Shown here one piece after another: positions 1,451-16,789 of a stretch of DNA of 64,000 bases (position 1 is the first letter of the stretch; each line of letters begins with the position of its first letter). The notes beneath the pieces were generated by a model, which was not told the DNA's origin, made no database searches, and worked only from the letters and a program-made list of their open reading frames with translations. Position numbers and translations under genes: made by a program. The stretch comes from Minisyncoccota bacterium (GTDB lineage Bacteria; Patescibacteriota; Minisyncoccia; Phycocordibacterales; SBAW01), in NCBI GenBank assembly GCA_035549255.1, contig DASZRD010000004.1, forward strand, positions 8,667-72,666. The letters run 5' to 3'.

Positions 1451-3571
<2,121 letters not shown>

Positions 3572-3587
3572 CCTATATACTAGAGGC

Positions 3588-4328
3588 ATGCTCTCTTCGG
3601 CGCTGTTCATCGCTTTCTTAGGCGGCATAGTGCCTGCACTCCTCTGGCTCATCTTCTGGCTCCTCGAAGACCGCCTCCATCCCGAACCCAAGCATTACAT
3701 CATCCTGTGCTTTATCGCCGGCATGATAACCGTCCCCTTCGCCGGCTATATCGAGCGCGCCGTATGCGGCTCGCTCTCGGGGGGCATGTGCCCGCTCCCG
3801 AACGTGTCCTTCTTTGTCCTCGTGTGCTGGGCGGCCACGGAGGAATTGCTCAAATTTGCGGCTGCCTACCTGGTAGCGCTGCGCACACGGGTGTTCGACG
3901 AGCCGCTTGATGCGGTCATTTACATGGTCACTGCGGCGCTGGGCTTTTCCGCTGCGGAAAACATGCTCTTCCTCTACAGCTGCCTGAACCTAAGCCCCGG
4001 CAGCGGATGCATTGCCCCCACCATCCTCTCTCAGGCAATCATTACGGGAGACCTGCGCTTTATGGGCGCCATGCTCCTCCATACGCTTTCTTCAGCCACG
4101 ATCGGGTTGTGTCTAGCACTCGCCTACTACCACGGCGCCCGGTCGCGGCGCCTGGCGGCCCTGGGCGGACTTATCCTTGCGACCGTGTTGCACACCTCAT
4201 TCAACTTTTTTATACTTGGGTCTGGGAGCAATGCGACATTCTGGATATTCCTCGTCATCTGGCTGGGGATTATCGCGGTTCTCCTGGGAATCGAGCGCGT
4301 CAAGCGCCCGATGCCGCACTATTCTTAA
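3588..4328 (+). CDS. PrsW-like intramembrane metalloprotease family protein
   Basis: Multi-TM protein with WAATEELLKFAA (EExxK-like) and GFSAAENMLFLY motifs. Start set at ATG 3588, downstream of the valS stop; the listed 3549 start would overlap valS. Confidence 0.55.
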   Translation: MLSSALFIAFLGGIVPALLWLIFWLLEDRLHPEPKHYIILCFIAGMITVPFAGYIERAVCGSLSGGMCPLPNVSFFVLVCWAATEELLKFAAAYLVALRTRVFDEPLDAVIYMVTAALGFSAAENMLFLYSCLNLSPGSGCIAPTILSQAIITGDLRFMGAMLLHTLSSATIGLCLALAYYHGARSRRLAALGGLILATVLHTSFNFFILGSGSNATFWIFLVIWLGIIAVLLGIERVKRPMPHYS

Positions 4329-6878: not shown

Positions 6879-8969
6879 CTATCGACCCATTTGGTAAAGC
6901 TGAGCCACCTCGCTCGCCGAGAGCGCGCGGTTGTAGATGCGGACGTCGTCTATAGAGCCCGGGAAGTAATTGCCCGCCCCGCAGCCGCTGGACCCCGCCT
7001 CGGAGCCGATGCAGTCGCGTATGGCGCTGGTGTAGCGGATAGCACCGCTCGGGCTGGTGTTGTCCGAGACGTCGACGCCGTTGACATAGAGCCGGAGGGT
7101 CTCGCCGTCGTAGGTAGCCATGGCGTAGTACCAGGTATTCTGCGCGATATTGGTATCGGTTACATAATAGTAGGTGCCGCCGATGTTGACCGTGGCATCG
7201 AGCCCCGTGACGGTGTCATTGAAGGCGAGGCTGTAGCCGCCCGACTCGGTCTTGGAGAGAATGCGGGTGTTGGTGGTTGTGCTGGTAGCCCTAAACCACG
7301 CGCCAAAGGAGATGGTAGTGGGCTCGAGCGTGACGCTGCGCGGTATCGAGATATATGAGGCACTGCCGTCAAATTTGAGCGCCTGGCCGACCTTCCCTGC
7401 CACGGGCGCGGTGGTCGTGCCCAAGCTCACGAGCGTGCCGGTGTTGCCCGTGCCGCTCATATCGGCGATCGTATTTGAGCGCCAGTTGATGGTCGAGCCG
7501 TCCATAGTCCAATAGCCGACCAGGCCGGAGTTGATATTCCCTGCATTAGTCGTAGGCCCCGGCGAGTGTGCGATATTGGTCTGACCGAGACGATAGAGCT
7601 GGGACACCTCGCTAGCGGAGAGAGCGCGGTTGTAGACGCGGATATCATCGAGATAGCCCGAGAACCAGTCGCCCGAATTCCCGCCCACGAAGGCGACCGG
7701 ACACCCGTAGGTTTTTGAAATGGTTCCCACAGCCGCGCCGTTGGCATAGAGCGTCGCGGTACCGGTGTTGTTGACGAAGACGAGATACGTCCAGGCGTTC
7801 TGCGGCACGGTATAGGAGGGCGAAAAGGTGTCGTCCGAGACACCGTACGCCGTCTCGCCGGCTATGGTATTGCCCACCTGCTGCACGCGCAAACTGTATT
7901 GGCCGCTATCCATCATCGGGTAGCCGTGCGACTGGCTGGCGCTGTTGCGCAAGTTTACCCAGCCGGTAACCGTGCATGGTGCGGAGACATTTGAGCCCGA
8001 TGTGGGGATATACGCTCCCGATGCAAGCGAGAGCGCCTGACCTATCTTCCCTGCCACGGCAGTTATGGCACCGCTCACAGAGGTAAGCGTGCCGGTGATG
8101 CTGCCGACGATATCCTGCGTCGTCGGGCCCGCCCAATTAGTGGTGTTGCCGTCCATAGGCCAATAGTCAACCAGGCCCTTAGAGAGCGGTGCGGCGCTCG
8201 AGTGGCCGAGGGTGGCTCTCTGACTCTGTAGGGAGCTGATGTCGCTTTGGGTAAGCGCGCGATTATATCCCTTGAGGTCGTCTATCTGGCCGTTGAAATA
8301 GTTCGCAAGATCGCTGCAGTGGCCCGAAGCGCTGGTGAAGCTGCAGCCCTGCTGCGGGTAGCCCGCGAGAAAGTAAATGTCGTCGGGCGGCGCCCACGCG
8401 CCGCTTTGTGTGCCCTGGAGCACTCCGTCAACATAGAGCGACTGCGTCTGCGCTATGCCGTCGTAATAGAGGACGACGTTGTACCATTGCCCCGCGTTGA
8501 TAGGAGAAGAAGCGATGTCGCCGATGTTCCAGAAGCCGGCATAAAATGCGCCGTTGTAGATGCCGACGAGCGTATAGTGGTAGCCCGAGCTCGGCGCGCC
8601 ATCGCCTTCTTCGGTGAGGACACTCTGCTCGGTGGCCACGTCATTAGCCTTTACCCACATCGAGAGCGAGACGGAGGTCGGGAGCGAGCCGATGAGGCCC
8701 CAGGCGTATTGATTGGTACCATCAAGCGTGAGCGCCTGGCCATTGTGGCCGGCGGCGACGGATGCGCCATTGACGAGCGTGAGATTGTGCCCGTTGCCCG
8801 AGAGGTCGGAGACCGTGTTGCCGCTGACCGTACTGGAATCGAAGGACCAGTACGCGGTCACGCCCAGCTGATTAGCCGGCACCGAGATCGTGCTGATCCG
8901 CGCTGCGGCGTCAGCCGTAAGCGGCAGGAAAAACAGCGCGGCAAAGAGCATGTAGAAAGTCTTTTTCAT
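6879..8969 (-). CDS. Secreted LamG-domain (concanavalin A-like lectin/glucanase) repeat protein, 3 modules
   Basis: Signal peptide MKKTFYMLFAALFFLPLTADA. Three modules each end in the motif DD(I/V)R(V/I)YNRALSASEV(S/A)QLY, characteristic of Laminin_G_3 repeats. Confidence 0.75.
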   Translation of the reverse strand: MKKTFYMLFAALFFLPLTADAAARISTISVPANQLGVTAYWSFDSSTVSGNTVSDLSGNGHNLTLVNGASVAAGHNGQALTLDGTNQYAWGLIGSLPTSVSLSMWVKANDVATEQSVLTEEGDGAPSSGYHYTLVGIYNGAFYAGFWNIGDIASSPINAGQWYNVVLYYDGIAQTQSLYVDGVLQGTQSGAWAPPDDIYFLAGYPQQGCSFTSASGHCSDLANYFNGQIDDLKGYNRALTQSDISSLQSQRATLGHSSAAPLSKGLVDYWPMDGNTTNWAGPTTQDIVGSITGTLTSVSGAITAVAGKIGQALSLASGAYIPTSGSNVSAPCTVTGWVNLRNSASQSHGYPMMDSGQYSLRVQQVGNTIAGETAYGVSDDTFSPSYTVPQNAWTYLVFVNNTGTATLYANGAAVGTISKTYGCPVAFVGGNSGDWFSGYLDDIRVYNRALSASEVSQLYRLGQTNIAHSPGPTTNAGNINSGLVGYWTMDGSTINWRSNTIADMSGTGNTGTLVSLGTTTAPVAGKVGQALKFDGSASYISIPRSVTLEPTTISFGAWFRATSTTTNTRILSKTESGGYSLAFNDTVTGLDATVNIGGTYYYVTDTNIAQNTWYYAMATYDGETLRLYVNGVDVSDNTSPSGAIRYTSAIRDCIGSEAGSSGCGAGNYFPGSIDDVRIYNRALSASEVAQLYQMGR

Positions 8970-11092
8970 TTGCCGAGATTGTAGAGCTGCTTCGCTTCGT
9001 TTGCGGAGAGAGCGCGGTTGTAGACGCGTATCTCGTCGATATCACCTGCAAAGGGCGACGAGGGGGAGCTAATGAGCTCGTAGCCGTCGGTCCAGAGGTC
9101 CATGCTGCCAATACTCGAGAACCAGTTCGATGTCGATGAGCTCCCGCTCGTATAGCCCAGCCCCACGGCGGAGCCGTCGATATAGAGCGTATTGCCTAAA
9201 GAATTGACGGTGAAGGTCAGCTGATGCCACTTGGTGTCGTAGGCCAGGGTCGCCGTGGCCCGATAGAAGTCGCTTGAGCCCTTGAGCAAGAGAGAGATGG
9301 TGCCGCCAGCAGTGTAGAGCAGGCGGAAGATGTTGTTGTTGGTGCCCGACTGGCCGAGGTAAATGAGCGAGCCGTTAGTGTCGGCCGTGCGGCGGAACCA
9401 CACGCTCACACTCCCCTGAGTGTTGCCGGAAATCGCGGAGACGACCGAGGTATTGCGGATATAATCGCCCATGCCGTTGAAGTGAAGCGCCTGGCCGAGC
9501 TTGCCCGCGACCTTCATCGAGCTAGTCGCCACCGAGCCGTCGGCGTAGCCATTGTAGCCGCCGATCCTGTCATAAATTTTATCGGTCACATCGATGCCGT
9601 TGAGGCTCCAGTATGCCACGAGCCCGCTCGCGAGCGAAGAATTGTCGGAGAGGGTGATTGCGTTCGCGACTTTAGCCGCGCCTTCTTGATAGAGCTGTTT
9701 TACTTCGCCTGCCGAAAGCGCGCGGTTGTAGACCCGTACGTCGTCGATAGGACCCTTGAAAAAGTTGCCCGGCGAGTTTGACACATACTCGGAGCCGATG
9801 AGCACATTGGTCGTGGGGGTAGGCGTGCTGCAGGCATCGACCGTCGAAGTATCGAGCGTGCCGTTGATATAGAGATACTTCGTGGTCCCATCGAAGACGC
9901 CGACGACGTGATACCACGCACCGGGAGAGAGTACCGCATTGGACGTGAGAGTAAACGAGCCACAATCGCGCTGCAATTGAAGGTGGTTCGTCGATGAGAG
10001 GTTCAAGATCCACTGACCCGTAACGCCCGAATTAAACTTGGATACGATGGTTTGCGCTCCGGTAGCCGTGGTCTTTACCCACGCGCTTACGGCGAACGGC
10101 GCAGTGCCGGAAAAGCTCAGTATATTGCCGAGGTTGACATATGAGCTGCCGCTTAACGAAAGCGCCTGCCCCAGTTTTCCCTGCACGAGCATCGAACTAG
10201 TCGCAACCCCTCCACCGACGTAGCCGTTATTCCCCTGCCCGCTACTGTCCTGGATGGTGGTGCCTATGGTCGAACCGTCAAAGGTCCACCAGCCGACCAG
10301 GCCGTTTTTTAAGGTCGAGCCGCCCGCGAGCGTGCCCGCCGAGGTGTTGTACTTTACGCTCGTGGCGTTGTAGAAGTTGGCTACCTCGCCTGCCGAAAGC
10401 GCGCGATTGTAGATGCGGATGTCGTCGAGCGAGCCGTTATAGTAGGCACCCCACGTTTGTGCGTAGCCTATATAAAACGGTGCTGCACCGATGATGTTGG
10501 CGGTATCAGTACTGCTGCTATCGAGTACGCCGTTAACATACCAATAGATGGTCCCGCCGGTGCGCACAAACGTGGCCAGCGTCCACACTCCTGTCGGAAT
10601 CGTGGCAGTAGTAAGGAAATTGTGCTGTTGCGTAAGTCGCACATCAAGGTGTCCCGGATGACCAGAGTCTTGGTATATCTGCCACCCATTGTCCGAGTCA
10701 CTCGATTTTTGGCCTATGAGCCCGATTGTTGCGCCGGTGCCCCATGGCGAAGAAGGTTTGATCCAAAACGAGACGGAAAAATCTCCCGTACCAAAATTAT
10801 AGGCAGAAGTAAATCCGCGGCTCGCGACCTGAATGGAAGAGCTGTTAAACGATAGTGAGGAACCAATCTTGCCGGGAGTCCATGTTGGAGAGTTGTAGAG
10901 ATCAAGATTGTAGCCGTTTCCGCTGTAGTCGCGTGCCGTGGCACCGCTTCCTTCGTCAAACTTCCAATAACTCAAGAGACCGAAATTGTTGGCGGGCGTG
11001 ATGATCGCAGCCTGCGCAGCATTCGCCCATGCAAAGGCGACGTAGACGATAATACTCGCGAGGATAATCTTATGTTTTAGCGAAATTGCCAT
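8966..11092 (-). CDS. Secreted LamG-domain repeat protein, 4 modules
   Basis: Start placed at MAISLKHKIILASIIVYVAFAWANAAQA (signal peptide). Four modules end in IDD(I/V)R(I/V)YNRALSAGEV..LY. The stop overlaps the downstream LamG gene by 4 nt. Confidence 0.75.
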   Translation of the reverse strand: MAISLKHKIILASIIVYVAFAWANAAQAAIITPANNFGLLSYWKFDEGSGATARDYSGNGYNLDLYNSPTWTPGKIGSSLSFNSSSIQVASRGFTSAYNFGTGDFSVSFWIKPSSPWGTGATIGLIGQKSSDSDNGWQIYQDSGHPGHLDVRLTQQHNFLTTATIPTGVWTLATFVRTGGTIYWYVNGVLDSSSTDTANIIGAAPFYIGYAQTWGAYYNGSLDDIRIYNRALSAGEVANFYNATSVKYNTSAGTLAGGSTLKNGLVGWWTFDGSTIGTTIQDSSGQGNNGYVGGGVATSSMLVQGKLGQALSLSGSSYVNLGNILSFSGTAPFAVSAWVKTTATGAQTIVSKFNSGVTGQWILNLSSTNHLQLQRDCGSFTLTSNAVLSPGAWYHVVGVFDGTTKYLYINGTLDTSTVDACSTPTPTTNVLIGSEYVSNSPGNFFKGPIDDVRVYNRALSAGEVKQLYQEGAAKVANAITLSDNSSLASGLVAYWSLNGIDVTDKIYDRIGGYNGYADGSVATSSMKVAGKLGQALHFNGMGDYIRNTSVVSAISGNTQGSVSVWFRRTADTNGSLIYLGQSGTNNNIFRLLYTAGGTISLLLKGSSDFYRATATLAYDTKWHQLTFTVNSLGNTLYIDGSAVGLGYTSGSSSTSNWFSSIGSMDLWTDGYELISSPSSPFAGDIDEIRVYNRALSANEAKQLYNLGK

Positions 11093-11652
11093 GTTTGGAA
11101 TATCTGCCGCAGGAGGTCGTCCAGTCGCGCATAGGTCGAGATCTGGTAGAGGTTGCCGCGGAAGACAAACCATACTTCGCGCGAGTCGCCGCCGAAGGCA
11201 TCGTTGTTGCTCTTGAAAGCGAGCCCCGTGTAATGTTCGCCGACCTCGACCGGCTGCGGGTCGAGGATCTCGAGGTCGGGCACGTCTTGGTGGATGCGGT
11301 CGGCCGTGAGCGTGTAGCTCCCTGTTGTATCCTCATCGAAGGGCGATACCGCTATCTGGATGCCGTTATCGTTCTGGTCTTGGAGCACGATAGTCTCAGG
11401 CGTGCCATCCGGGTCGCCGGGGATATCCTGCGCGGTGAAGTCGGCAGGCATTTTGAGCGAGAAGTTGTAGATAGAGTTGTCGTACTCTTTGGTGAGCGCG
11501 GGCACGACGTAGGGCGGCTGCGATGGTTGATCGCTAGAAGGAGCCCAGGATGCGGGGACCAATTTTGTCGCACCATATGCGGCAAAGCCCAAGAGTATGA
11601 GCGCTATTGCGACTAGAAAGATGGTCCGCTTTTTTCTAAATGGGTACATCAT
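11077..11652 (-). CDS. Membrane-anchored hypothetical protein (191 aa, N-terminal TM, extracytoplasmic domain)
   Basis: ORF tightly packed between the giant fibre gene and the LamG gene, with TM segment IFLVAIALILLGFAAYGA. Confidence 0.5.
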   Translation of the reverse strand: MMYPFRKKRTIFLVAIALILLGFAAYGATKLVPASWAPSSDQPSQPPYVVPALTKEYDNSIYNFSLKMPADFTAQDIPGDPDGTPETIVLQDQNDNGIQIAVSPFDEDTTGSYTLTADRIHQDVPDLEILDPQPVEVGEHYTGLAFKSNNDAFGGDSREVWFVFRGNLYQISTYARLDDLLRQIFQTWQFR

Positions 11653-11671: not shown

Positions 11672-14600
11672 TTAATTTTGCGGAGTTGAGGAAGCGTCCG
11701 ACGAGTCGCTCGGTGCAGGGTCGCTTACGGGCGGCGTTGACGATGCGTCGGTGTCGGGCGCGGGCGGTGTCTCTACGGTGAGTGGCGTAGAGCTTGCGGT
11801 GTCGTCGCTTGAAGTAGGTGGAGTCGAGGTCGCATCATCGCTGGACGCCGTAGGCGTTGATGTCGCGTCGTCGGAAGGCGTAGGCGCAGGAGACGGGGTA
11901 CCCGCGCTCCCCTGCCCGCTTGCATTGACCATCGCAAGGAACTGCGCCTGCGTCACGCACACGCTACCAACGCACAGCTTGTCGGTGTCGACCTCCTTGG
12001 CGTGGAAGATCGTCGCGTAGAGGTCGTGGATGCCATTCTGCGCATCGCCGAGCCATGCGATGAGCGTCGCTTTGAAGTTGTCACCGAGGTTGGCTATCTG
12101 CTGTATGGCCGCGGCAAGATACGGCGTGAAGCCCGCGTAATTGAGCGTAAGGTAGCCGCTGGCGGTGTCGGTCGCTACAAGGTCGGGGAAGACTTTCTGA
12201 ACATCCTGCGCGATGAAGCCGCTATGCTCCGGCGTGCCGGTGGCCTCGGTGAGCCAGTTGTAGAAGACCGGATCGAGTGCCATTACCAAGGCGAGCGATG
12301 AAGAGGCATTGATCGACGTGATGTTGGTCTTGAGGCGCTCGTCGGAGGAGCAGCCAACCGAGCCGGATGTTGGGTTGATGGTGCACGAGCCGGTGCCGTT
12401 GGTGAAGCGCGCGACGATAGCGCCGGTCGTCGAGGTGGCGACATCGAGGAGGTACGCGGGCGCCTGGGTCCCGATACCGACGCCGAGATTATTGATATTA
12501 CCCGTGCCATCGGCCGTGCCGTAGATCGTGAGCACCGGCGATCCACCCACGTTTGCCGTGTAGCTTTCGACCGTGCCGGCCGATGCGGAAGAATCGACGG
12601 GGAGATCGGCCCAGCTTACGATGCCCGCGTCGGTGTCGAAGTTGAGCGAGCCGATCGCGAGGTTGTTGATTGATGTAATGCCGCTGTTGAGGTTGTAGAC
12701 CAGATTGCCATTGCCGACATTCAATCCCCCGGAGATAGTCGAGGTTGCGGTAGTAGAAGTGGCGTTAATGGTAGCGCCGACAATATCGCCAGCTACTGAA
12801 AGTCTTGCATAGGGAGAGGTAGTGCCAATGCCTAGGTTGCCGGTTGCTAAAAGATTAACAAGCTGATCGTTGGAATAGAAGCCCCACGTGAGCGCGTTAC
12901 TTGATGAGCCGCTTGAGGAATATTTGAAGCCCATATAGCCGCTGTTGTTAAGTGCCGCATTCACTCCGGTAAGCTGCGTCAACAGGATATGGCCGGTCGT
13001 GAGATTCGGTGCAAGCACTACTCCGCCCCATACATACGTCGTGTCATTGGTAAGAGTCATGTTGAGGAGTCCGGGTCCGACGCTTGCATTGCCCGAACTT
13101 CCGCTTATCGAGAGCGACGCGATGGGACTCGTCGTGCCGATGCCAACATTGCTGCCAAAGTACGCAGTACCTGTCGTTGTGGCACCGCCTGAAATAGTGA
13201 GGCCGCCCTGCTGCGTGCCATCGCCTATCGTCGTTGAGGCATAGAGGTTAAGCGATCCGCCGCCGGCCGCGAGACAGGTGCCATTTATCGCATAACAGCC
13301 GCTCGTGATGTTGATGCCGTTGGCGACGGTGGCTGAACCAGTTTGATCTATCGAGAAGAGCGACGAGCCGCTCGTCGAGGCGATGGTGAACGGATTATAG
13401 CCCGCGGTGCCGAGTATGCTAAGCGATGCTGCAGGCGACGTCGTGCCGATGCCGACGCGGAGGTTCTGCACTCCGCCAGTGCCATTGCTCTCGCCGTAGA
13501 CGGTGAGCACCGACGTGTCGCCGATATTGATCGATTGCGATTGTATGACGCCTGCCGCGGCGCCGCTGTCGACCGGAATGTTAGAGAGTGCCACCACGCC
13601 CGCGTCGGTGTCGAAGGAGAGATTGCCTATCGAGAGGTTGCTGATGGTCGTCGTGCCGCTTGAGGAGTCAACGGTGAAGGCGTTGGAGCCGTTGGCGCCG
13701 ACGGAGAAGACGCCGCTGTTTGAGACCGTGAGAATGGAAGTCGAGGCAGAGTTGGCAACCTCGAGCGCGTTGCCCGCAGTCGATGAGCCGCCCCATACCG
13801 TGAGCTTGGCATAGGGCGAAGAGGTACCAACACCTACATTGCCGGACGACTTGATAACGAATTGCGGATTGATCGAATTATCTTCAACCGAGAGATAATC
13901 CCCCGAGCCGGTGCCATTCTTGCGCACGATCAATCCCGTCGAGTTATTGAAATTATTGAATACGTTCACTCCTGCCTGTCCGCTAGCCGCCGTAAGAACC
14001 GAGTTAGAGTTGCTGAGATATAATGCCGATGTCCCCGACAATTGAAGGGTCCCGTTCGCGGAGAAAAAGCTGCTAATGCTCGCCGAAGGCAGCCTACCGA
14101 TCCCCACGTTGCCCAGGGTATCGATCGTAAAGAGCGTCTTAGTGGAAGAGCCGATCACGAATGCAGGGCCCGAGATGCCGTTGGGGTTTACCGAGAGCTG
14201 CGCCCACGGCGAGGTGGTGCCGATGCCGAAGCTGCCGTCGGCGGTGAGGCGAGCCTTCTCCGTATTATTGGTGAAGAATCCTATCGGATGATTTGAGAAG
14301 TTGCCGATATAGAAGCCTGGCGTGCCCAAGGGGCCGGTGCCGAGGCCGTCGGCATAGAATTGCGAGGCGACTGCTTGGTTATCCGCATAGAGGATCGCCC
14401 CCGCGTAGGACTGGCCGCTCGTGTTGGTATTCGAGAGCGTATAGCGCACGCCGCGCGAATTGTTAACGCTCTTCTGAGCGAAAAGGGTTTCAAGAGGATC
14501 ATATCCGCCGATATCTATGTTGCCGCCGAAGTATGCGTTCCCGGTCGTTGTGGCGCCGCCGCTTATCGTGAGGCCGCCCGCCGGCGCGCCGTCGCCAATA

Positions 14601-16480
14601 GTGGTCGAGGCGTAAAGATTGACTGAGCCTCCGCCGCCAATGATCCCAAGGCTCGATGTGGAAACGTTGACCCACTTGCTGCCGTCGTATTGGAGCAGGT
14701 CGCCCCATGCGGGCGAAGAGGCATCGACATCGGTGAGCGCGGAGAGTGCCGAAGCGCCGCCAGTGCTTGAGCCGTTGAAGGTGGAGTTGGTGATAGTCGC
14801 ATTAGTGATCGTGACGCCGCTCAAATTGCTCACAATCTGGCTGAGCGCCACGTTGTTGGTGTAGCCGCCGGTCGAGTATTGCCCGTAATCTATCGTGCTC
14901 CCCTGCGGCTGCACCGAGCCCGCATTCTGGTAGATCAGGCTGCGGAGGTTGTTGTTCAATTGGCTCAGCTGGTCGGCAAGCGAAGATTGCGTAACGTAGT
15001 TGGAAGCGAGGAATTGTGTGGAGGGCGCCGGCACAATAGCTGCCGGAGCGGATTGCACGGGCTGCGCATTCTTTATTGCCGGAGAATGAGCATCTTCGCC
15101 TTGCGACAGGGCAGCCATGTCTGCGCCCGGAGCGCTTTGGACAGGCACAACAACGGTCGTAGTGGGGTTGCCTTGAGGCGCTATGGCAAGATCCGGCTGA
15201 GCGGGAGCAAAGATGCTGTTCCACCAATCGCCCACTGCGTTCCAAACCGATGCCGTGTTGCCCTGTGCAATCGCGATACGTGGCAGGGACATATGCGAAG
15301 GAACGTCGCTTACATATGCGAGCGACGCTGCGGCAGCATCGGATGCGTTTTGCGCGACCGAGAGGCTTCCCTCAAGCCAGAAGCCGAGCGCCGCTGCGCC
15401 GGCGTTTACTTGCGTCGTAACGCCGTCGGCAAGCGTTTGATACATATGCGCTTGCGCATCGCCCATCGCATCGGCCCACGCAACGAACGCATTGCCGATG
15501 TTGTAATACAGGGCCGCTTGGGTGTCGGCCATCGCGTTGCCTGCCGATTGCAAGGCGTAGTACGTACCGGCAGTCTCCTGCACCATGGCGCTCGTCATAT
15601 CGCGCATGAACGCAAGCGGGACCGAGGCGATACTGCGTGCGAGCGGCCGCGCGCCGTCATTCCAAAAGGCTACCGCGCGCGCAGAGCTTTGCAGGTCGGT
15701 CGTCACCGCGTCGCCGAGCGCCGCGTAGATGCCTGCCTGCGCGTCGCTCATGTCGTCGGCCCAATCGACGAAGTTCCGAGTGAATGAAAATTCAATCTCA
15801 GTCTGCGCGGCAAGCGCGACATTCACAGCGTTAGTGATCAAGCCATAGCCAACAGATGCCGCTTGCGTATCGAGGGCGACGCGATCCTGAATATTCCTAG
15901 ACAGGGCGAGCGGGACTGCGGCAACTAAGTTCGCCCCGCTTGCAAAATTCTCAAGGGTCAGGGTTTGAGACATGTCGGCACGCGCCGCGGCAAGCACCGC
16001 AGCGGCATTATCGCGCGGCAGCGGGGCAGCAGCCATCAGAGGCACGACTTCGATGCTCTTATACGACGCCGGCTGTCGATACGCATCGGCCAGCACTGAG
16101 AGCGGAAGTGATTGCGCAAACGAGAGCGCCCAGGCGCCTACGAAGATGATGAGCACCGCGAGCGGAGCGAGCGCGTTGTAGCGGAAGAACGGCGAGAAGT
16201 TGTTCGCCTGCTTTTTCTTTTTTGGCTTGCGCTCCGGCGCCACCGACTGATATTCACGCTTAAGGTCCTCGGAGAGCTGGGTCTTCCGGGCCTCCTTAAT
16301 ATTTTTCATCTCCCGAAGGTACTTCTCCAGAGACCACGCGCTCACGTACCACGTGCGGCCTCTGAGCTCCCCTTCCACTTTGCCGCGACGGCATAGCAGG
16401 GTTACGTAATCGCCGGTTACGCCGAAGAGCTTGGCCGCTTCGGCCGAGGGGATTTTATTCTTCTCAAAATCTTGTTCCAT
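11672..16480 (-). CDS. Giant (1602 aa) chimeric cell-surface fibre protein: N-terminal HTH (excisionase/HTH_17-like), one TM, tail-fibre-like repeat shaft, Peptidase S74 intramolecular chaperone domain, C-terminal Ser/Thr/Pro tandem repeats
   Basis: HTH region AEAAKLFGVTGDYVTLLCRRGKVEGELRGRTWYVSAWSLEKYL. TM segment FFRYNALAPLAVLIIFVGAWALSFA. At least 5 copies of G(N)(V/L)GIGTTSP.A.LS(V/I). S74-like SSDERLKTNITSI...GFIAQDVQKVFPDLV...AAIQQI. Confidence 0.8.
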   Translation of the reverse strand: MEQDFEKNKIPSAEAAKLFGVTGDYVTLLCRRGKVEGELRGRTWYVSAWSLEKYLREMKNIKEARKTQLSEDLKREYQSVAPERKPKKKKQANNFSPFFRYNALAPLAVLIIFVGAWALSFAQSLPLSVLADAYRQPASYKSIEVVPLMAAAPLPRDNAAAVLAAARADMSQTLTLENFASGANLVAAVPLALSRNIQDRVALDTQAASVGYGLITNAVNVALAAQTEIEFSFTRNFVDWADDMSDAQAGIYAALGDAVTTDLQSSARAVAFWNDGARPLARSIASVPLAFMRDMTSAMVQETAGTYYALQSAGNAMADTQAALYYNIGNAFVAWADAMGDAQAHMYQTLADGVTTQVNAGAAALGFWLEGSLSVAQNASDAAAASLAYVSDVPSHMSLPRIAIAQGNTASVWNAVGDWWNSIFAPAQPDLAIAPQGNPTTTVVVPVQSAPGADMAALSQGEDAHSPAIKNAQPVQSAPAAIVPAPSTQFLASNYVTQSSLADQLSQLNNNLRSLIYQNAGSVQPQGSTIDYGQYSTGGYTNNVALSQIVSNLSGVTITNATITNSTFNGSSTGGASALSALTDVDASSPAWGDLLQYDGSKWVNVSTSSLGIIGGGGSVNLYASTTIGDGAPAGGLTISGGATTTGNAYFGGNIDIGGYDPLETLFAQKSVNNSRGVRYTLSNTNTSGQSYAGAILYADNQAVASQFYADGLGTGPLGTPGFYIGNFSNHPIGFFTNNTEKARLTADGSFGIGTTSPWAQLSVNPNGISGPAFVIGSSTKTLFTIDTLGNVGIGRLPSASISSFFSANGTLQLSGTSALYLSNSNSVLTAASGQAGVNVFNNFNNSTGLIVRKNGTGSGDYLSVEDNSINPQFVIKSSGNVGVGTSSPYAKLTVWGGSSTAGNALEVANSASTSILTVSNSGVFSVGANGSNAFTVDSSSGTTTISNLSIGNLSFDTDAGVVALSNIPVDSGAAAGVIQSQSINIGDTSVLTVYGESNGTGGVQNLRVGIGTTSPAASLSILGTAGYNPFTIASTSGSSLFSIDQTGSATVANGINITSGCYAINGTCLAAGGGSLNLYASTTIGDGTQQGGLTISGGATTTGTAYFGSNVGIGTTSPIASLSISGSSGNASVGPGLLNMTLTNDTTYVWGGVVLAPNLTTGHILLTQLTGVNAALNNSGYMGFKYSSSGSSSNALTWGFYSNDQLVNLLATGNLGIGTTSPYARLSVAGDIVGATINATSTTATSTISGGLNVGNGNLVYNLNSGITSINNLAIGSLNFDTDAGIVSWADLPVDSSASAGTVESYTANVGGSPVLTIYGTADGTGNINNLGVGIGTQAPAYLLDVATSTTGAIVARFTNGTGSCTINPTSGSVGCSSDERLKTNITSINASSSLALVMALDPVFYNWLTEATGTPEHSGFIAQDVQKVFPDLVATDTASGYLTLNYAGFTPYLAAAIQQIANLGDNFKATLIAWLGDAQNGIHDLYATIFHAKEVDTDKLCVGSVCVTQAQFLAMVNASGQGSAGTPSPAPTPSDDATSTPTASSDDATSTPPTSSDDTASSTPLTVETPPAPDTDASSTPPVSDPAPSDSSDASSTPQN
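11675..11905 (-). repeat. In-frame tandem repeats (~33-nt units) encoding an SDDATSTP(T/P)(A/T)S low-complexity tail
   Basis: Protein tail PSDDATSTPTASSDDATSTPPTSSDDTASSTP... Direct DNA repeats are visible at about 11780..11890. Confidence 0.5.
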
Positions 16481-16510
16481 GGCGCTTGGCGAAATAGCGA
16501 GACGCAGAAA

Positions 16511-16537
16511 GGGCAGATCGCCGATTGCGATCTGCCC
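16511..16537. promoter_or_regulatory. Perfect 11-bp-arm inverted repeat (GGGCAGATCGC-cgatt-GCGATCTGCCC) in the 5' leader of the giant gene
   Basis: Seen directly, 31-57 nt upstream of the ATG at 16480. Candidate operator or RNA hairpin. Confidence 0.35.
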
Positions 16538-16689
16538 TGTTGCTTATCAGCATACTGCCGAACGCGCAGGAGGCACAACAATAAAAATGTCGGCTCTGTG
16601 GATAGCTGGCGAAATAACCTTTCTATATATAGAGGCGACAGGAAAGAAGTTTGAAGGAGGCTCCGCAGCGCGACGGCGCGAGGACCGAG

Positions 16690-16711
16690 CAAATTTTCAG
16701 CAGAAAATTTG
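16690..16711. promoter_or_regulatory. AT-rich perfect inverted repeat CAAATTTTC-agca-GAAAATTTG upstream of the giant gene
   Basis: Seen directly in the 16481..16789 intergenic region. Confidence 0.3.
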
Positions 16712-16789
16712 TGTACTCCTGAGAACTTGCTTTCCTGTTGCCTCTAAAAGAGGCTCTAAAATATAGTGATATCGGCTATGCGAGGTAGC

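What the first reader, a model, noticed from the sequence alone, without database searches (positions are those of the whole stretch)
11672..16480. Giant chimeric protein: excisionase-type HTH + single TM + tail-fibre shaft + Peptidase S74 chaperone domain
One uninterrupted 1602-aa ORF combines four unusual parts. (1) A clear N-terminal HTH_17/excisionase-like DNA-binding fold (AEAAKLFGVTGDYVTLLCRRGKVEGELRGRTWYVSAWSLEKYL). (2) One hydrophobic helix (FFRYNALAPLAVLIIFVGAWALSFA) preceded by a basic stretch. (3) A ~1300-aa ectodomain with duplicated Ala/Gln-rich ~40-aa modules and at least five copies of the G(N)(V/L)GIGTTSP(Y/W/I)A.LS(V/I) motif typical of phage tail-fibre beta-helical shafts. 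It also contains a large internal duplication (LNLYASTTIGDG..GGLTISGGATTTG.AYFG appears twice). (4) A Peptidase_S74 (endosialidase intramolecular chaperone) signature: SSDERLKTNI...GFIAQDVQKVFPDLV...AAIQQI. The topology implied is cytoplasmic DNA-binding domain, TM, extracellular domain, as in ToxR/CadC-type one-component regulators, but the extracellular part is a tail-fibre/adhesin. That would be a membrane-tethered transcription factor coupled to a surface fibre, or a domesticated phage receptor-binding protein. I know of no described equivalent.
Basis: partly seen in the sequence, partly recalled or inferred. Interest (0 to 1): 0.85.

Follow-up and report, generated by a model that had tools for sequence, protein, structure and literature searches.

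The report
Membrane-anchored phage-like fibre with cytoplasmic HTH
A tiny symbiotic (CPR/Patescibacteria) bacterium encodes a giant phage-tail-fibre-like surface protein that is fixed in its own membrane by an unusual anchor carrying a DNA-binding-type domain inside the cell; the same anchor recurs on hundreds of other surface proteins in this group and seems not to have been described.

Summary
A 1602-aa ORF lies on the minus strand at 11672-16480. It encodes an excisionase/MerR-type winged HTH, a basic helical linker, one TM helix, an Ala-rich stalk, a Pro-rich linker, an ~890-aa repetitive shaft with six GIGTTSP loops, an intact Peptidase_S74 domain (S1379/K1384) and a 122-aa tail.

It is not an artefact. 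A 56%-identical syntenic orthologue has the same layout, and the HTH is the most constrained segment (dN/dS 0.055).

It is also not unique. The HTH-TM cassette occurs in up to ~1950 protein clusters, and every named member is from Patescibacteria. Ninety-two of 99 long members have a TM after the HTH. Sixteen of the top 150 end in S74, sometimes in tandem arrays.

The fibre part resembles the Bdellovibrio MAT fibres and phage tail fibres. The anchor is the new element.

Best reading: a membrane-anchored trimeric adhesin matured by S74 autocleavage. S74 lies outside the cell, so it cannot release the HTH as in MYRF. What the HTH does is inferred, not shown.

A conserved structured RNA lies immediately upstream.

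Verdict: new variant of a known kind; interest about 0.68.

The parts
11672..16480 (-). Complete CDS, 1602 aa plus stop. It is identical to an NCBI 'tail fiber domain-containing protein' from Candidatus Paceibacterota.
16301..16456 (-). Cytoplasmic winged HTH of the excisionase/MerR (HTH_17) type, aa 9-60.
   Evidence: Pfam is sub-threshold on this protein. The family-level HTH_17 match is 28/32. The AF2 model has pLDDT >92. Foldseek hits are TraN, Xis, BldC and RacA. dN/dS is 0.055, the lowest in the protein.
16190..16300 (-). Helical linker carrying the family motif R..LS..LK.EY, followed by the basic stretch KPKKKK; aa 61-97.
   Evidence: The AF2 helix spans aa 48-79. The motif appears in the alignment consensus.
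16115..16189 (-). Single transmembrane helix acting as a signal-anchor, N-in; aa 98-122.
   Evidence: The hydropathy peak is 2.29. The family-wide positive-inside bias is. dN/dS is 0.12.
15221..16114 (-). Ala-rich juxtamembrane ectodomain with two ~95-aa repeats (aa 212-299 and 307-397); aa 123-420. No known family matches it.
15011..15220 (-). Pro/Ala/Gln-rich low-complexity linker, the fastest-evolving segment; aa 421-490. It probably spans the cell wall (inferred).
   Evidence: 29% aa identity to the orthologue and dN/dS 0.68
12347..15010 (-). Neck and repetitive fibre shaft, aa 491-1378. It carries six GIGTTSP capping-loop motifs (aa 751, 882, 1009, 1112, 1216, 1334) and the duplications 604-701~1056-1159 and 881-1039~1215-1374.
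   Evidence: Repeats are. The profile matches Bdellovibrio MAT fibre Bd2133 at E 4e-5. The modules are shared with more than 20 family members. Similarity to phage fibres is distant.
12041..12346 (-). Peptidase_S74 intramolecular-chaperone autoprocessing domain, aa 1379-1480. The predicted cleavage is before S1379, with catalytic partner K1384.
   Evidence: Pfam scores 63 bits. The dyad is conserved in 16 class members. PDB profile hits are a tail fibre (8jov, 1.5e-16) and MyRF ICA (2.3e-13). The AF2 model has pLDDT ~90, and Foldseek finds 7dc3 and 3gw6.
11675..12040 (-). Post-S74 tail, aa 1481-1602. It has a conserved helical part (84% id to the orthologue) followed by a Ser/Thr/Pro/Asp-rich low-complexity end.
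16481..16789 (-). Conserved structured non-coding RNA or leader between lepA and the fibre gene.
   Evidence: It is 86% identical to the orthologous spacer, while flanking synonymous sites are near saturation. The folding z-score is -5.1. Of 76 predicted pairs, 9 are compensatory and none is broken. No Rfam family matches.
16510..16538 (.). Perfect 12-bp inverted repeat AGGGCAGATCGC-N5-GCGATCTGCCCT, ending about 29 nt before the ATG. It could be a terminator/attenuator hairpin or an operator.
11077..11652 (-). Downstream 191-aa membrane-anchored protein, 20 nt after the fibre stop. It is conserved next to the orthologue and its function is unknown.

Best explanation
The gene encodes a type-II (N-in, C-out) membrane-anchored surface fibre of a Candidatus Paceibacterota (CPR) bacterium.

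The C-terminal ~1100 aa form a phage-tail-fibre/MAT-like shaft that probably trimerises. The C-terminal Peptidase_S74 intramolecular chaperone would drive its folding and then cut itself off before Ser1379. That leaves a mature fibre whose distal tip (about aa 1215-1378) is exposed for binding another cell's surface. This fits the episymbiotic lifestyle of the group.

The fibre is not attached by a signal peptide plus a surface-binding domain. It is held by an N-terminal cassette of cytoplasmic excisionase/MerR-type winged HTH, helical basic linker and one TM helix. Patescibacteria use this cassette on hundreds of different ectodomains.

The HTH stays on the cytoplasmic face. Most likely it binds DNA (the nucleoid) or another cytoplasmic partner there, which would couple or position the surface structure. 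S74 cleavage cannot release it, because S74 is on the other side of the membrane.

Shown: the architecture, conservation, topology bias, fold assignments, catalytic dyad and family distribution. Inferred: trimerisation, autocleavage, the adhesin role, and DNA binding by the HTH.
For: - The ORF and its domains are established.
- S74 is above the Pfam cutoff and the SDxxxK dyad is intact and conserved across the class. The S74 fold matches MyRF ICA and the endosialidase chaperone.
- The shaft profile hits Bdellovibrio MAT fibres, and the GIGTTSP motif resembles the MAT/MyRF capping-loop motif (PMC10769870). PHROG tail-fibre families also match.
- The HTH fold model and its nearest structures are all dsDNA binders. 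At family level 28/32 modules match HTH_17.
- The orthologue has the same architecture and synteny. dN/dS is 0.055 for the HTH.
- The cassette is found in 1954 clusters at E<=1e-3. In 92 of 99 proteins of >=250 aa a TM follows the HTH. K+R is 3.5 before the TM against 1.1 after it.
- 16 of 150 members end in S74, and 9 of 64 by Pfam.
- Tandem arrays of HTH-TM-fibre-S74 genes occur in other Patescibacteria.
- All named members are Patescibacteria.
- The context is chromosomal and housekeeping.
Against: - No experiment supports any step.
- The HTH_17 score of this protein alone is below Pfam's threshold.
- Foldseek E-values for the 80-aa HTH model are weak (0.02-0.4) despite probability ~1.
- The shaft was modelled only as a monomer and with low confidence (pLDDT 50-80), so the trimeric beta-helix is inferred by homology.
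- The tip has no recognised ligand-binding domain.
- Why an adhesin would need a cytoplasmic DNA-binding-type domain is unexplained.
- The hits beyond the top 150 were not inspected and may include ordinary soluble HTH_17 proteins.
Confidence: 0.62

Rival explanations
1. Contact-sensing membrane-tethered transcription factor. Engagement of, or pulling on, the fibre would trigger proteolytic release or activation of the HTH, which then regulates genes. This would be analogous to ToxR/CadC, Notch or MYRF.
For: - The HTH belongs to a DNA-binding fold family.
- It is the most constrained part of the protein.
- MYRF shows that an S74 domain and a DNA-binding domain can cooperate in a membrane-bound factor, and that trimerisation confers DNA binding (PMC3742443, PMC5436001).
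- A conserved perfect palindrome and structured leader lie just upstream of the gene and could be an autoregulatory site.
- A PrsW-family intramembrane protease gene lies 8 kb away.
Against: - S74 is extracellular and ~1250 aa from the TM, so its cleavage cannot free the HTH.
- The identical cassette is fused to ectodomains from 22 to >5000 aa, often in several paralogues per locus. That is hard to reconcile with gene-specific regulators.
- The TM helices show ordinary Pro/Asn content, with no RIP signature.
- The upstream palindrome is not found upstream of other family genes.
- There is no OmpR-type wHTH.
Confidence: 0.15
2. The HTH is not a DNA binder here. It would be a protein-interaction or positioning handle, as in RodZ, whose cytoplasmic HTH binds MreB. 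Alternatively it could be a folded cytoplasmic plug that enforces N-in insertion of very large Sec substrates. On this reading the protein is simply an adhesin with an unusual anchor.
For: - The architecture HTH-TM-extracellular part is exactly that of RodZ (established knowledge).
- The cassette is generic and independent of the ectodomain.
- The conserved linker motif R..LS..LK.EY next to the membrane suggests a conserved interaction surface.
- Stand-alone soluble copies also exist.
Against: - The nearest structures are all dsDNA-binding proteins.
- The conserved residues (R31, K34, G41-R42, W44) lie in the recognition helix and wing, where this fold contacts DNA.
- Half of the family carries two tandem HTH copies like TraN, which binds dsDNA as an internal dimer.
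- RodZ's HTH is XRE-type, not excisionase-type.
Confidence: 0.2
3. A prophage or phage structural gene (a true virion tail fibre), or an assembly or annotation artefact that joins an excisionase gene to a tail-fibre gene.
For: - Excisionase-like HTH and tail-fibre/S74 domains are both typical phage modules.
- PHROG tail-fibre hits exist.
- NCBI names it 'tail fiber domain-containing protein'.
Against: - The neighbours are lepA, murJ, a TPR protein, leuS and tRNAs. No phage genes are present.
- The same fusion and synteny occur in a 56%-identical orthologue.
- Purifying selection runs across the HTH, linker and TM.
- A TM anchor makes no sense for a virion fibre.
- Identity to any phage is <=36% and limited to S74 plus short shaft pieces.
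- The fusion recurs in at least 16 divergent clusters.
Confidence: 0.03

Closest known systems
Bdellovibrio bacteriovorus MAT (mosaic adhesive trimeric) fibre family (Caulton et al. 2024, PMC10769870)
   Same: - Large (~1000 aa or more) chromosomally encoded fibres of a bacterium that lives on other bacteria.
- A repetitive shaft with V-G-x-x-x-x-P-x-x-x-L-type capping loops.
- Many members end in an autoproteolytic S74 domain with SDxxxK.
- They occur as multi-paralogue families with mosaic tips.
- The profile of the shaft here hits Bd2133 at E 4e-5.
   Different: - MATs have a signal peptide and a conserved ~130-aa beta-rich N-terminal domain thought to bind a surface element. This protein has a cytoplasmic wHTH, one TM and an Ala-rich stalk instead.
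- The envelope type and phylum differ.
- This protein has an extra conserved ~120-aa tail after S74.
Phage tail fibres and tailspikes with C-terminal intramolecular chaperone (endosialidase K1F/endoNF, T5 pb1, S16 gp37; Pfam PF13884)
   Same: - The S74 fold and Ser/Lys dyad.
- A fibre N-terminus that is anchored and a C-terminal tip exposed after chaperone release.
- Sequence hits to annotated tail fibres.
   Different: - It is not in a phage genome.
- It is anchored in a cell membrane, not a baseplate.
- Identity is only 27-36%.
- It carries HTH and TM modules that are absent from virion fibres.
MYRF (myelin regulatory factor), a eukaryotic membrane-bound transcription factor with an S74/ICA domain (PMC3742443, PMC8326128)
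   Same: - It is the only described protein type that combines a DNA-binding domain, a TM helix and an S74 domain.
- The S74 part here matches MyRF ICA at E 2.3e-13 by sequence and is the top Foldseek hit.
- S74-driven trimerisation would bring three DNA-binding domains together.
   Different: - The order in MYRF is DBD-ICA-TM, with the ICA on the same side as the DBD, so cleavage frees the DBD.
- Here the order is HTH-TM-fibre-S74. S74 is on the opposite side of the membrane, so cleavage cannot free the HTH.
- The DBD type differs: Ndt80 in MYRF, excisionase-type here.
Bitopic HTH-TM-periplasmic proteins: ToxR/CadC (OmpR-type wHTH) and RodZ (XRE-type HTH)
   Same: A cytoplasmic N-terminal HTH, a single TM and an extracytoplasmic C-terminal part, with N-in topology.
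   Different: - The HTH family differs (excisionase/MerR-type HTH_17).
- The ectodomain is a >1400-aa fibre rather than a small sensor or periplasmic domain.
- The cassette is promiscuously fused to many different ectodomains.
TraN of pIP501, Xis, BldC and RacA (excisionase/MerR-like wHTH DNA binders)
   Same: - They are the best structural matches to the N-terminal domain.
- TraN has two tandem copies, like half of the cassette family.
- RacA tethers the chromosome to a membrane-associated site.
   Different: They are soluble proteins. None is an integral membrane protein or fused to an extracellular structure.

Membership tests
Peptidase_S74 / intramolecular chaperone autoprocessing domain (PF13884) | Sequence match above Pfam's gathering score | tested here: met
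   63.2 bits against a cutoff of 22, aa 1379-1435
Peptidase_S74 / intramolecular chaperone autoprocessing domain (PF13884) | Catalytic Ser-Lys dyad in an S-D-x-x-x-K motif at the cleavage site | tested here: met
   S1379-DERL-K1384. The dyad is conserved in all 16 class members aligned.
Peptidase_S74 / intramolecular chaperone autoprocessing domain (PF13884) | ICA fold | tested here: met
   AF2 pLDDT is ~90 over aa 1379-1480. Foldseek finds 7dc3 at prob 1.0 (TMt 0.67) and 3gw6 at prob 0.99.
Peptidase_S74 / intramolecular chaperone autoprocessing domain (PF13884) | Trimer-dependent self-cleavage that releases the C-terminal fragment | not testable with these tools
   This needs expression of wild type and S1379A, with SDS-PAGE.
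HTH_17 / excisionase-MerR-like winged HTH (PF12728) | Sequence match above Pfam's gathering score (27 bits) | tested here: not met
   The score is 17.7 bits on the full protein and 24.1 bits on the isolated module. However, 28 of 32 homologous modules match, with a best E of 2.3e-9.
HTH_17 / excisionase-MerR-like winged HTH (PF12728) | beta-alpha-alpha-beta-beta wing fold | tested here: met
   The AF2 elements are E9-11, H12-19, H23-32, E37-40 and E43-47, with pLDDT >92. The matches are Xis 4j2n (rmsd 1.7-1.9 A), BldC and TraN.
HTH_17 / excisionase-MerR-like winged HTH (PF12728) | DNA binding | not testable with these tools
   This needs EMSA or DAP-seq.
Bdellovibrio MAT fibre family | Shaft with capping-loop motif, homologous to MAT beta-helix regions | tested here: inconclusive
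   The profile hits Bd2133 (8ond) at E 4e-5, and more weakly 8ol4, 8oml and 8ojn. The motif GIGTTSPxxxL has one residue more than the published V-G-G/N-pi-x-x-P-x-x-x-L. The monomer model of the shaft has low confidence.
Bdellovibrio MAT fibre family | Signal peptide followed by the conserved ~130-aa beta-rich N-terminal domain (present in all 21 MATs) | tested here: not met
   The N-terminus is an HTH, a linker and a TM, followed by an Ala-rich region. There is no signal peptide.
Bdellovibrio MAT fibre family | C-terminal S74 with SDxxxK (S74 subgroup) | tested here: met
ToxR/CadC-type membrane one-component regulators | OmpR/PhoB-type winged HTH (Trans_reg_C) | tested here: not met
   There is no such Pfam hit even at E<=1. 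The fold matches excisionase/MerR-type instead.
ToxR/CadC-type membrane one-component regulators | Bitopic N-in topology with a cytoplasmic DNA-binding domain | tested here: met
   Supported by the positive-inside rule only. It has not been verified experimentally.
MYRF-type membrane-bound transcription factors | S74/ICA domain between the DBD and the TM, on the same side as the DBD, so that cleavage frees the DBD | tested here: not met
   The order here is HTH(9-60)-TM(98-122)-...-S74(1379-1480).
Phage virion tail fibre (structural gene of a phage or prophage) | Location among phage structural or morphogenesis genes | tested here: not met
   The neighbours are lepA, murJ, a TPR protein, Laminin_G_3 proteins, leuS and tRNAs. 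The synteny is the same in the orthologue.
Trimeric autotransporter adhesin (the name JGI gives to relative P0026) | C-terminal YadA-like beta-barrel membrane anchor | tested here: not met
   There is no such Pfam hit. The C-terminus is S74 plus a low-complexity tail.

The most novel reading that the evidence does not exclude
The HTH-linker-TM cassette may be a Patescibacteria-specific device that physically or functionally couples extracellular structures (fibres, adhesins, Ig-like and beta-helix proteins) to the nucleoid. In these ultra-small cells, trimerised fibres would cluster three excisionase-type HTHs on DNA at the membrane. That could tether the chromosome beneath host-contact sites. 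It could also transmit host contact to gene expression or to DNA uptake. This would be a new principle of surface-to-genome coupling, distinct from ToxR, RodZ and MYRF.
Probability: 0.15. Interest if true: 0.9.

Novelty: new variant of a known kind. Interest (0 to 1): 0.68.

Why it matters
How CPR/Patescibacteria episymbionts recognise and hold on to their hosts is largely open. So far mainly type IV pili have been implicated.

This gene shows that Paceibacterota and relatives carry families, sometimes tandem arrays, of phage-like S74-matured fibres comparable to the prey-recognition MAT fibres of Bdellovibrio. That gives concrete candidates for host-specificity determinants.

The anchor is the surprising part. 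A cytoplasmic DNA-binding-type domain under very strong purifying selection is fused through one TM helix to hundreds of different extracellular proteins, so far only in this radiation.

If the domain binds DNA, it points to an undescribed link between the cell surface and the nucleoid in organisms with minimal regulatory repertoires. If it does not, it defines a new generic membrane-anchor module useful for annotating CPR surface proteomes.

Both outcomes can be tested with recombinant fragments.

Tried and rejected
- **Word-indexed homologue search, N-terminal 152 aa:** no hits. The same search with the module profile gave only short fragments. The exhaustive HMMER search was needed.
- **The search for related loci with broad alignments:** A1 and A4 failed because they had no stretch conserved enough. 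The narrow A3 pattern found only 9 loci. The taxonomic census is therefore a sample, not a count.
- **YceI-like/X158 'cellulose-binding protein' lead for the repeated shaft module:** it scored E 3e-5 with the mixed profile but fell to E 0.11 with a module-only profile, and Pfam gave nothing. Rejected as unproven.
- **Similarity between the juxtamembrane repeats and the post-S74 segment:** strong after jackhmmer iteration, but direct BLASTP gave E 0.089 and Smith-Waterman z=2.0. I keep it only as a shared short motif.
- **RIP signature in the TM:** Pro occurs in 29 of 92 TMs, which is unremarkable.
- **Upstream palindrome as a family-wide operator:** it is absent upstream of the 10 other family genes examined.
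- **Metagenome scan for the invariant RNA hairpin:** it returned one chance hit inside an unrelated CDS.
- **Rfam:** no family matched the upstream RNA at either the gathering or the E-value threshold.
- **NCBIfam and PDB by sequence:** the full protein gave no hit.
- **AFDB fold search:** the library was unavailable.
- **Literature:** nine searches found no description of an HTH-TM anchor or of S74 fibres in Patescibacteria. The library lacks most subscription journals.
Full report
**1. Observation**

The window holds an uninterrupted 1602-codon ORF at 11672-16480 on the minus strand, starting with ATG.

Pfam finds Peptidase_S74 at aa 1379-1435 with 63.2 bits against a cutoff of 22. HTH_17 at aa 13-57 scores only 17.7 bits, below the cutoff of 27. 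PHROGs gives tail-fibre families over the C-terminal ~250 aa. NCBIfam and PDB sequence searches of the whole protein give nothing.

Hydropathy shows exactly one TM-grade segment at about aa 101-122. It is preceded by KPKKKK and followed by an almost uncharged stretch.

Segment-wise self-comparison gives these repeats:
- Six GIGTTSP-type motifs, at aa 751, 882, 1009, 1112, 1216 and 1334.
- A duplication 604-701~1056-1159 at 40-57% identity.
- A ~160-aa duplication 881-1039~1215-1374 at 42-48% identity.
- Two ~95-aa Ala/Gln-rich repeats, 212-299~307-397, at E 1e-13.

So the description is confirmed, with small corrections: six motifs rather than five, and a ~95-aa repeat rather than ~40 aa.

**2. 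It is a real, translated fusion**

The identical protein is in NCBI as 'tail fiber domain-containing protein' from a Candidatus Paceibacterota MAG. A 1867-aa relative (P0002) is 56% identical. P0002 has the same HTH-linker-TM N-terminus, 78% identical over aa 1-135. It also sits in the same TPR-murJ-lepA-fibre synteny, followed by a homologue of the 191-aa downstream gene.

Codon-level comparison of the two orthologues gives near-saturated synonymous divergence (pS 0.46-0.67). The dN/dS values by segment are:

| Segment | dN/dS |
|---|---|
| HTH | 0.055 (lowest in the protein) |
| TM | 0.12 |
| Shaft modules | 0.07-0.14 |
| Ala-rich region | 0.36 |
| S74 | 0.58 |
| Pro-rich linker | 0.68 |

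An assembly frameshift or a mis-joined gene is therefore excluded. The HTH is translated and strongly constrained.

**3. The N-terminal domain**

An exhaustive phmmer search with aa 1-136 against 1.84 billion cluster representatives found 1954 proteins at E<=1e-3 and 87 at E<=1e-10. An alignment of 32 modules has the consensus ISS.EAA..FG.T.DY...LCR.GK..G.L.GR.W.V...SL..FL, then R...LS.....EY. Twenty-eight of the 32 hit HTH_17, with a best E of 2.3e-9.

AF2 on this alignment gives a confident model, with pLDDT >92 for residues 10-60. Its order is beta-alpha-alpha-beta-beta, followed by a long helix at aa 48-79.

Foldseek against the PDB ranks these at probability 0.8-1.0 with rmsd 1.7-2.7 A, although E-values are only 0.02-0.4 for such a small domain:
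- TraN of pIP501
- Mycobacteriophage Pukovnik Xis
- BldC
- P2 Cox
- RacA

All are dsDNA-binding excisionase/MerR-like winged helices. TraN is also the best sequence-profile hit in the PDB, at E 0.049.

**4. The cassette is widespread and has a fixed topology**

Among the 150 best hits:
- 73 have one HTH copy, 75 have two tandem copies and 2 have three.
- In 98 of the 99 proteins of >=250 aa, the first HTH starts within 40 residues of the N-terminus.
- In 92 of those 99, a TM-grade segment follows the last HTH within 180 aa.
- The 20 residues before the TM hold on average 3.5 K+R, against 1.1 after it.
- The part after the TM ranges from 22 to 5324 aa, with a median of 258.

Every member with a source name comes from Patescibacteria: Paceibacterota, Parcubacteria, Portnoybacteria, Nomurabacteria, Minisyncoccia or Saccharibacteria.

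Related loci often hold two or three such genes side by side. Short soluble versions also exist. The window itself holds only this one copy.

**5. HTH-TM-fibre-S74 is a recurrent class**

Sixteen of the 150 proteins carry a C-terminal S74 domain, together with GIGTTSP motifs and a further tail of 65-264 aa. That is 16 of the 28 that are >=1000 aa, and several of the remaining 12 are truncated by contig ends. Pfam sees S74 in 9 of 64 members scanned. A few others carry Ig-like, beta-helix or pectate-lyase-like domains.

The Ser and the Lys five residues later are conserved in all of them.

Two genomes show arrays:
- On a 722-kb contig, P0037 (2xHTH) and P0112 (1xHTH) are adjacent. They sit next to a 5104-aa LVIVD+S74 protein and a pilin-like Shufflon_N+S74 protein.
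- In another genome, a 258-aa HTH-TM protein, P0111 (2732 aa) and a 3115-aa HTH-TM...S74 protein are in tandem. A DGR accessory gene (bAvd) follows them.

**6. The fibre part**

A profile of the distal shaft plus S74 gives these PDB hits:

| PDB entry | Protein | E-value |
|---|---|---|
| 8jov | Phage tail fibre | 1.5e-16 |
| 6f45 | Long-tail-fibre distal subunit | 5e-14 |
| 7dc3 | MyRF ICA domain | 2.3e-13 |
| 8ond | Bdellovibrio Bd2133 (via the GIGTTSP region) | 4e-5 |
| 8ol4, 8oml, 8ojn | Bdellovibrio MAT fibres | weak |

The AF2 monomer model is confident for S74 (pLDDT ~90) and poor for the shaft (50-80), as expected for an interdigitated trimer. Foldseek confirms MyRF ICA and the endosialidase chaperone.

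Caulton et al. (PMC10769870) define the Bdellovibrio MAT family as follows:
- 21 'mosaic adhesive trimeric' fibres, 13 of which end in S74 with SDxxxK.
- Capping loops with the motif V-G-G/N-pi-x-x-P-x-x-x-L, also present in MyRF.
- Demonstrated self-cleavage and surface or prey localisation.
- An invariant N-terminal anchor: a signal peptide plus a ~130-aa beta-rich domain.

The protein here shares the shaft and S74 features but not the anchor.

tblastn against 50,697 phage genomes gives only 27-36% identity, confined to S74 and short shaft pieces. The neighbourhood is housekeeping genes. So it is not a prophage gene, and any phage origin is ancient.

The S74 segment is far more diverged between the two orthologues (39% identity) than its flanks (84-89%). 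P0002 also has extra modules. This suggests mosaic exchange at the distal end, as in receptor-binding proteins.

**7. Mechanism**

These steps are shown:
- A cytoplasmic-type N-terminus without a signal peptide.
- One TM with positive-inside bias.
- A long extracytoplasmic repetitive region homologous to trimeric fibres.
- An intact S74.

These steps are inferred:
- The TM acts as a signal-anchor.
- The Ala-rich stalk and Pro-rich linker carry the fibre through the wall.
- S74 templates trimerisation and cleaves before S1379, releasing a 224-aa fragment.
- The exposed tip (the last 881-1039-type module, aa 1215-1378) binds a partner cell.

S74 is on the far side of the membrane, so it cannot liberate the HTH. 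The MYRF mechanism therefore does not apply, although trimerisation would still cluster three HTHs.

What the HTH does is the open point. Three things favour DNA binding: the fold relatives, the conserved basic residues in the recognition helix and wing, and the TraN-like tandem copies. Two things argue against a gene-specific transcription factor and for a generic tether or anchor role: the promiscuous fusion to hundreds of ectodomains, and the presence of several paralogues per locus.

I rate the probabilities as follows:
- Anchored S74-fibre reading: about 0.8.
- DNA binding by the HTH: about 0.5.
- Contact-regulated transcription: about 0.15.

**8. Side finding**

The 309-nt lepA-fibre spacer (16481-16789, minus strand) is 86% identical between the two orthologous loci, despite near-saturated synonymous sites next door. 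It folds with z=-5.1. RNAalifold predicts 76 pairs, of which 9 are maintained by changes on both sides and none is broken.

The spacer ends in a perfect 12-bp hairpin about 29 nt before the ATG. It matches no Rfam family. The hairpin is not found upstream of other family genes, and a metagenome scan found no further copy.

It is a conserved structured leader or small RNA. It is known from only two sequences, so the covariation evidence is suggestive rather than statistical.

**9. Novelty and score**

The fibre/S74 half is a new member of a described kind (phage fibres and Bdellovibrio MATs). The HTH-TM anchor, and its radiation-wide use, is the new element. In nine full-text searches I found no paper describing it, with the caveat that most subscription journals are not covered.

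Its 'membrane-tethered transcription factor' reading and its uniqueness claim are only partly supported.

Overall verdict: new variant of a known kind, interest 0.68.

Noticed in passing
window 16481-16789 (minus strand); L001 6430-6753: A conserved structured non-coding RNA or leader lies between lepA and the fibre gene. It is 86% identical between orthologous loci, although neighbouring synonymous sites are near saturation. The folding z-score is -5.1. Of 76 predicted pairs, 9 are compensatory and none is broken. It matches no Rfam family. It ends in a perfect 12-bp hairpin (16510-16538) about 29 nt before the ATG.
   Followed up: partly
window 11077-11652 (minus strand); L001 12367-12671: A 191-aa protein with an N-terminal membrane anchor starts 20 nt after the fibre stop. 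It is conserved directly downstream of the orthologous fibre gene (shared motif YTVPALT..Y.N..Y.FSLKMPADFTA). It has no Pfam family and may be a partner or accessory protein.
   Followed up: partly
window 6879-8969 and 8966-11173 (minus strand): Two large secreted proteins (696 and 735 aa), each with three Laminin_G_3/ConA-like lectin domains, lie downstream on the same strand as the fibre gene. Together they may form a surface or host-interaction gene cluster. The listed start of the 735-aa ORF overlaps the 191-aa gene, so the real start is probably the internal MAISLKHK.
   Followed up: no
window aa 237-252, 332-347 and 1472-1486 of the ORF (nt about 15725-15772, 15440-15487, 12023-12067): The short motif [FL][VI][AD]W..[GS]DAQ[AN][GH][IM][YH] occurs in both juxtamembrane repeats and again just after the S74 core. 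An iterated profile links the regions strongly, but direct comparison is weak (E 0.089, z=2.0). The post-S74 tail itself is conserved across the class, unlike phage chaperones, which end the protein.
   Followed up: partly
window 12041-12346 vs L001: The S74 segment is only 39% identical between the two orthologues (dN/dS 0.58), while its flanks are 84-89% identical. The orthologue also has extra shaft modules. This suggests mosaic exchange at the distal end of the fibre.
   Followed up: partly
L013 27826-28199: A bAvd / 23S_rRNA_IVP gene (accessory protein of diversity-generating retroelements) lies directly downstream of a tandem array of HTH-TM-fibre-S74 genes in another Paceibacterota genome. 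DGR targeting of such fibres is possible.
   Followed up: no
L012 1-8607 and 24834-25664: In a 722-kb Patescibacteria contig, the HTH-anchored fibres sit beside a 5104-aa LVIVD+S74 protein and a protein with a pilin-like Shufflon_N N-terminus plus S74. S74 fibres in this group therefore use several alternative N-terminal anchors.
   Followed up: no
L004 668-1354, 1650-2546, 5959-6243; L005 638-1324, 1663-2667, 5869-6258; L009 1136-1510: Nomurabacteria and Saccharibacteria loci hold clusters of two or three genes with the HTH module, including short (89-123 aa) stand-alone HTH+linker proteins without a TM.
   Followed up: partly
window 3549-4328 (plus strand): A PrsW-family intramembrane metalloprotease gene lies about 8 kb from the fibre gene. 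No link to the fibre protein was shown.
   Followed up: no
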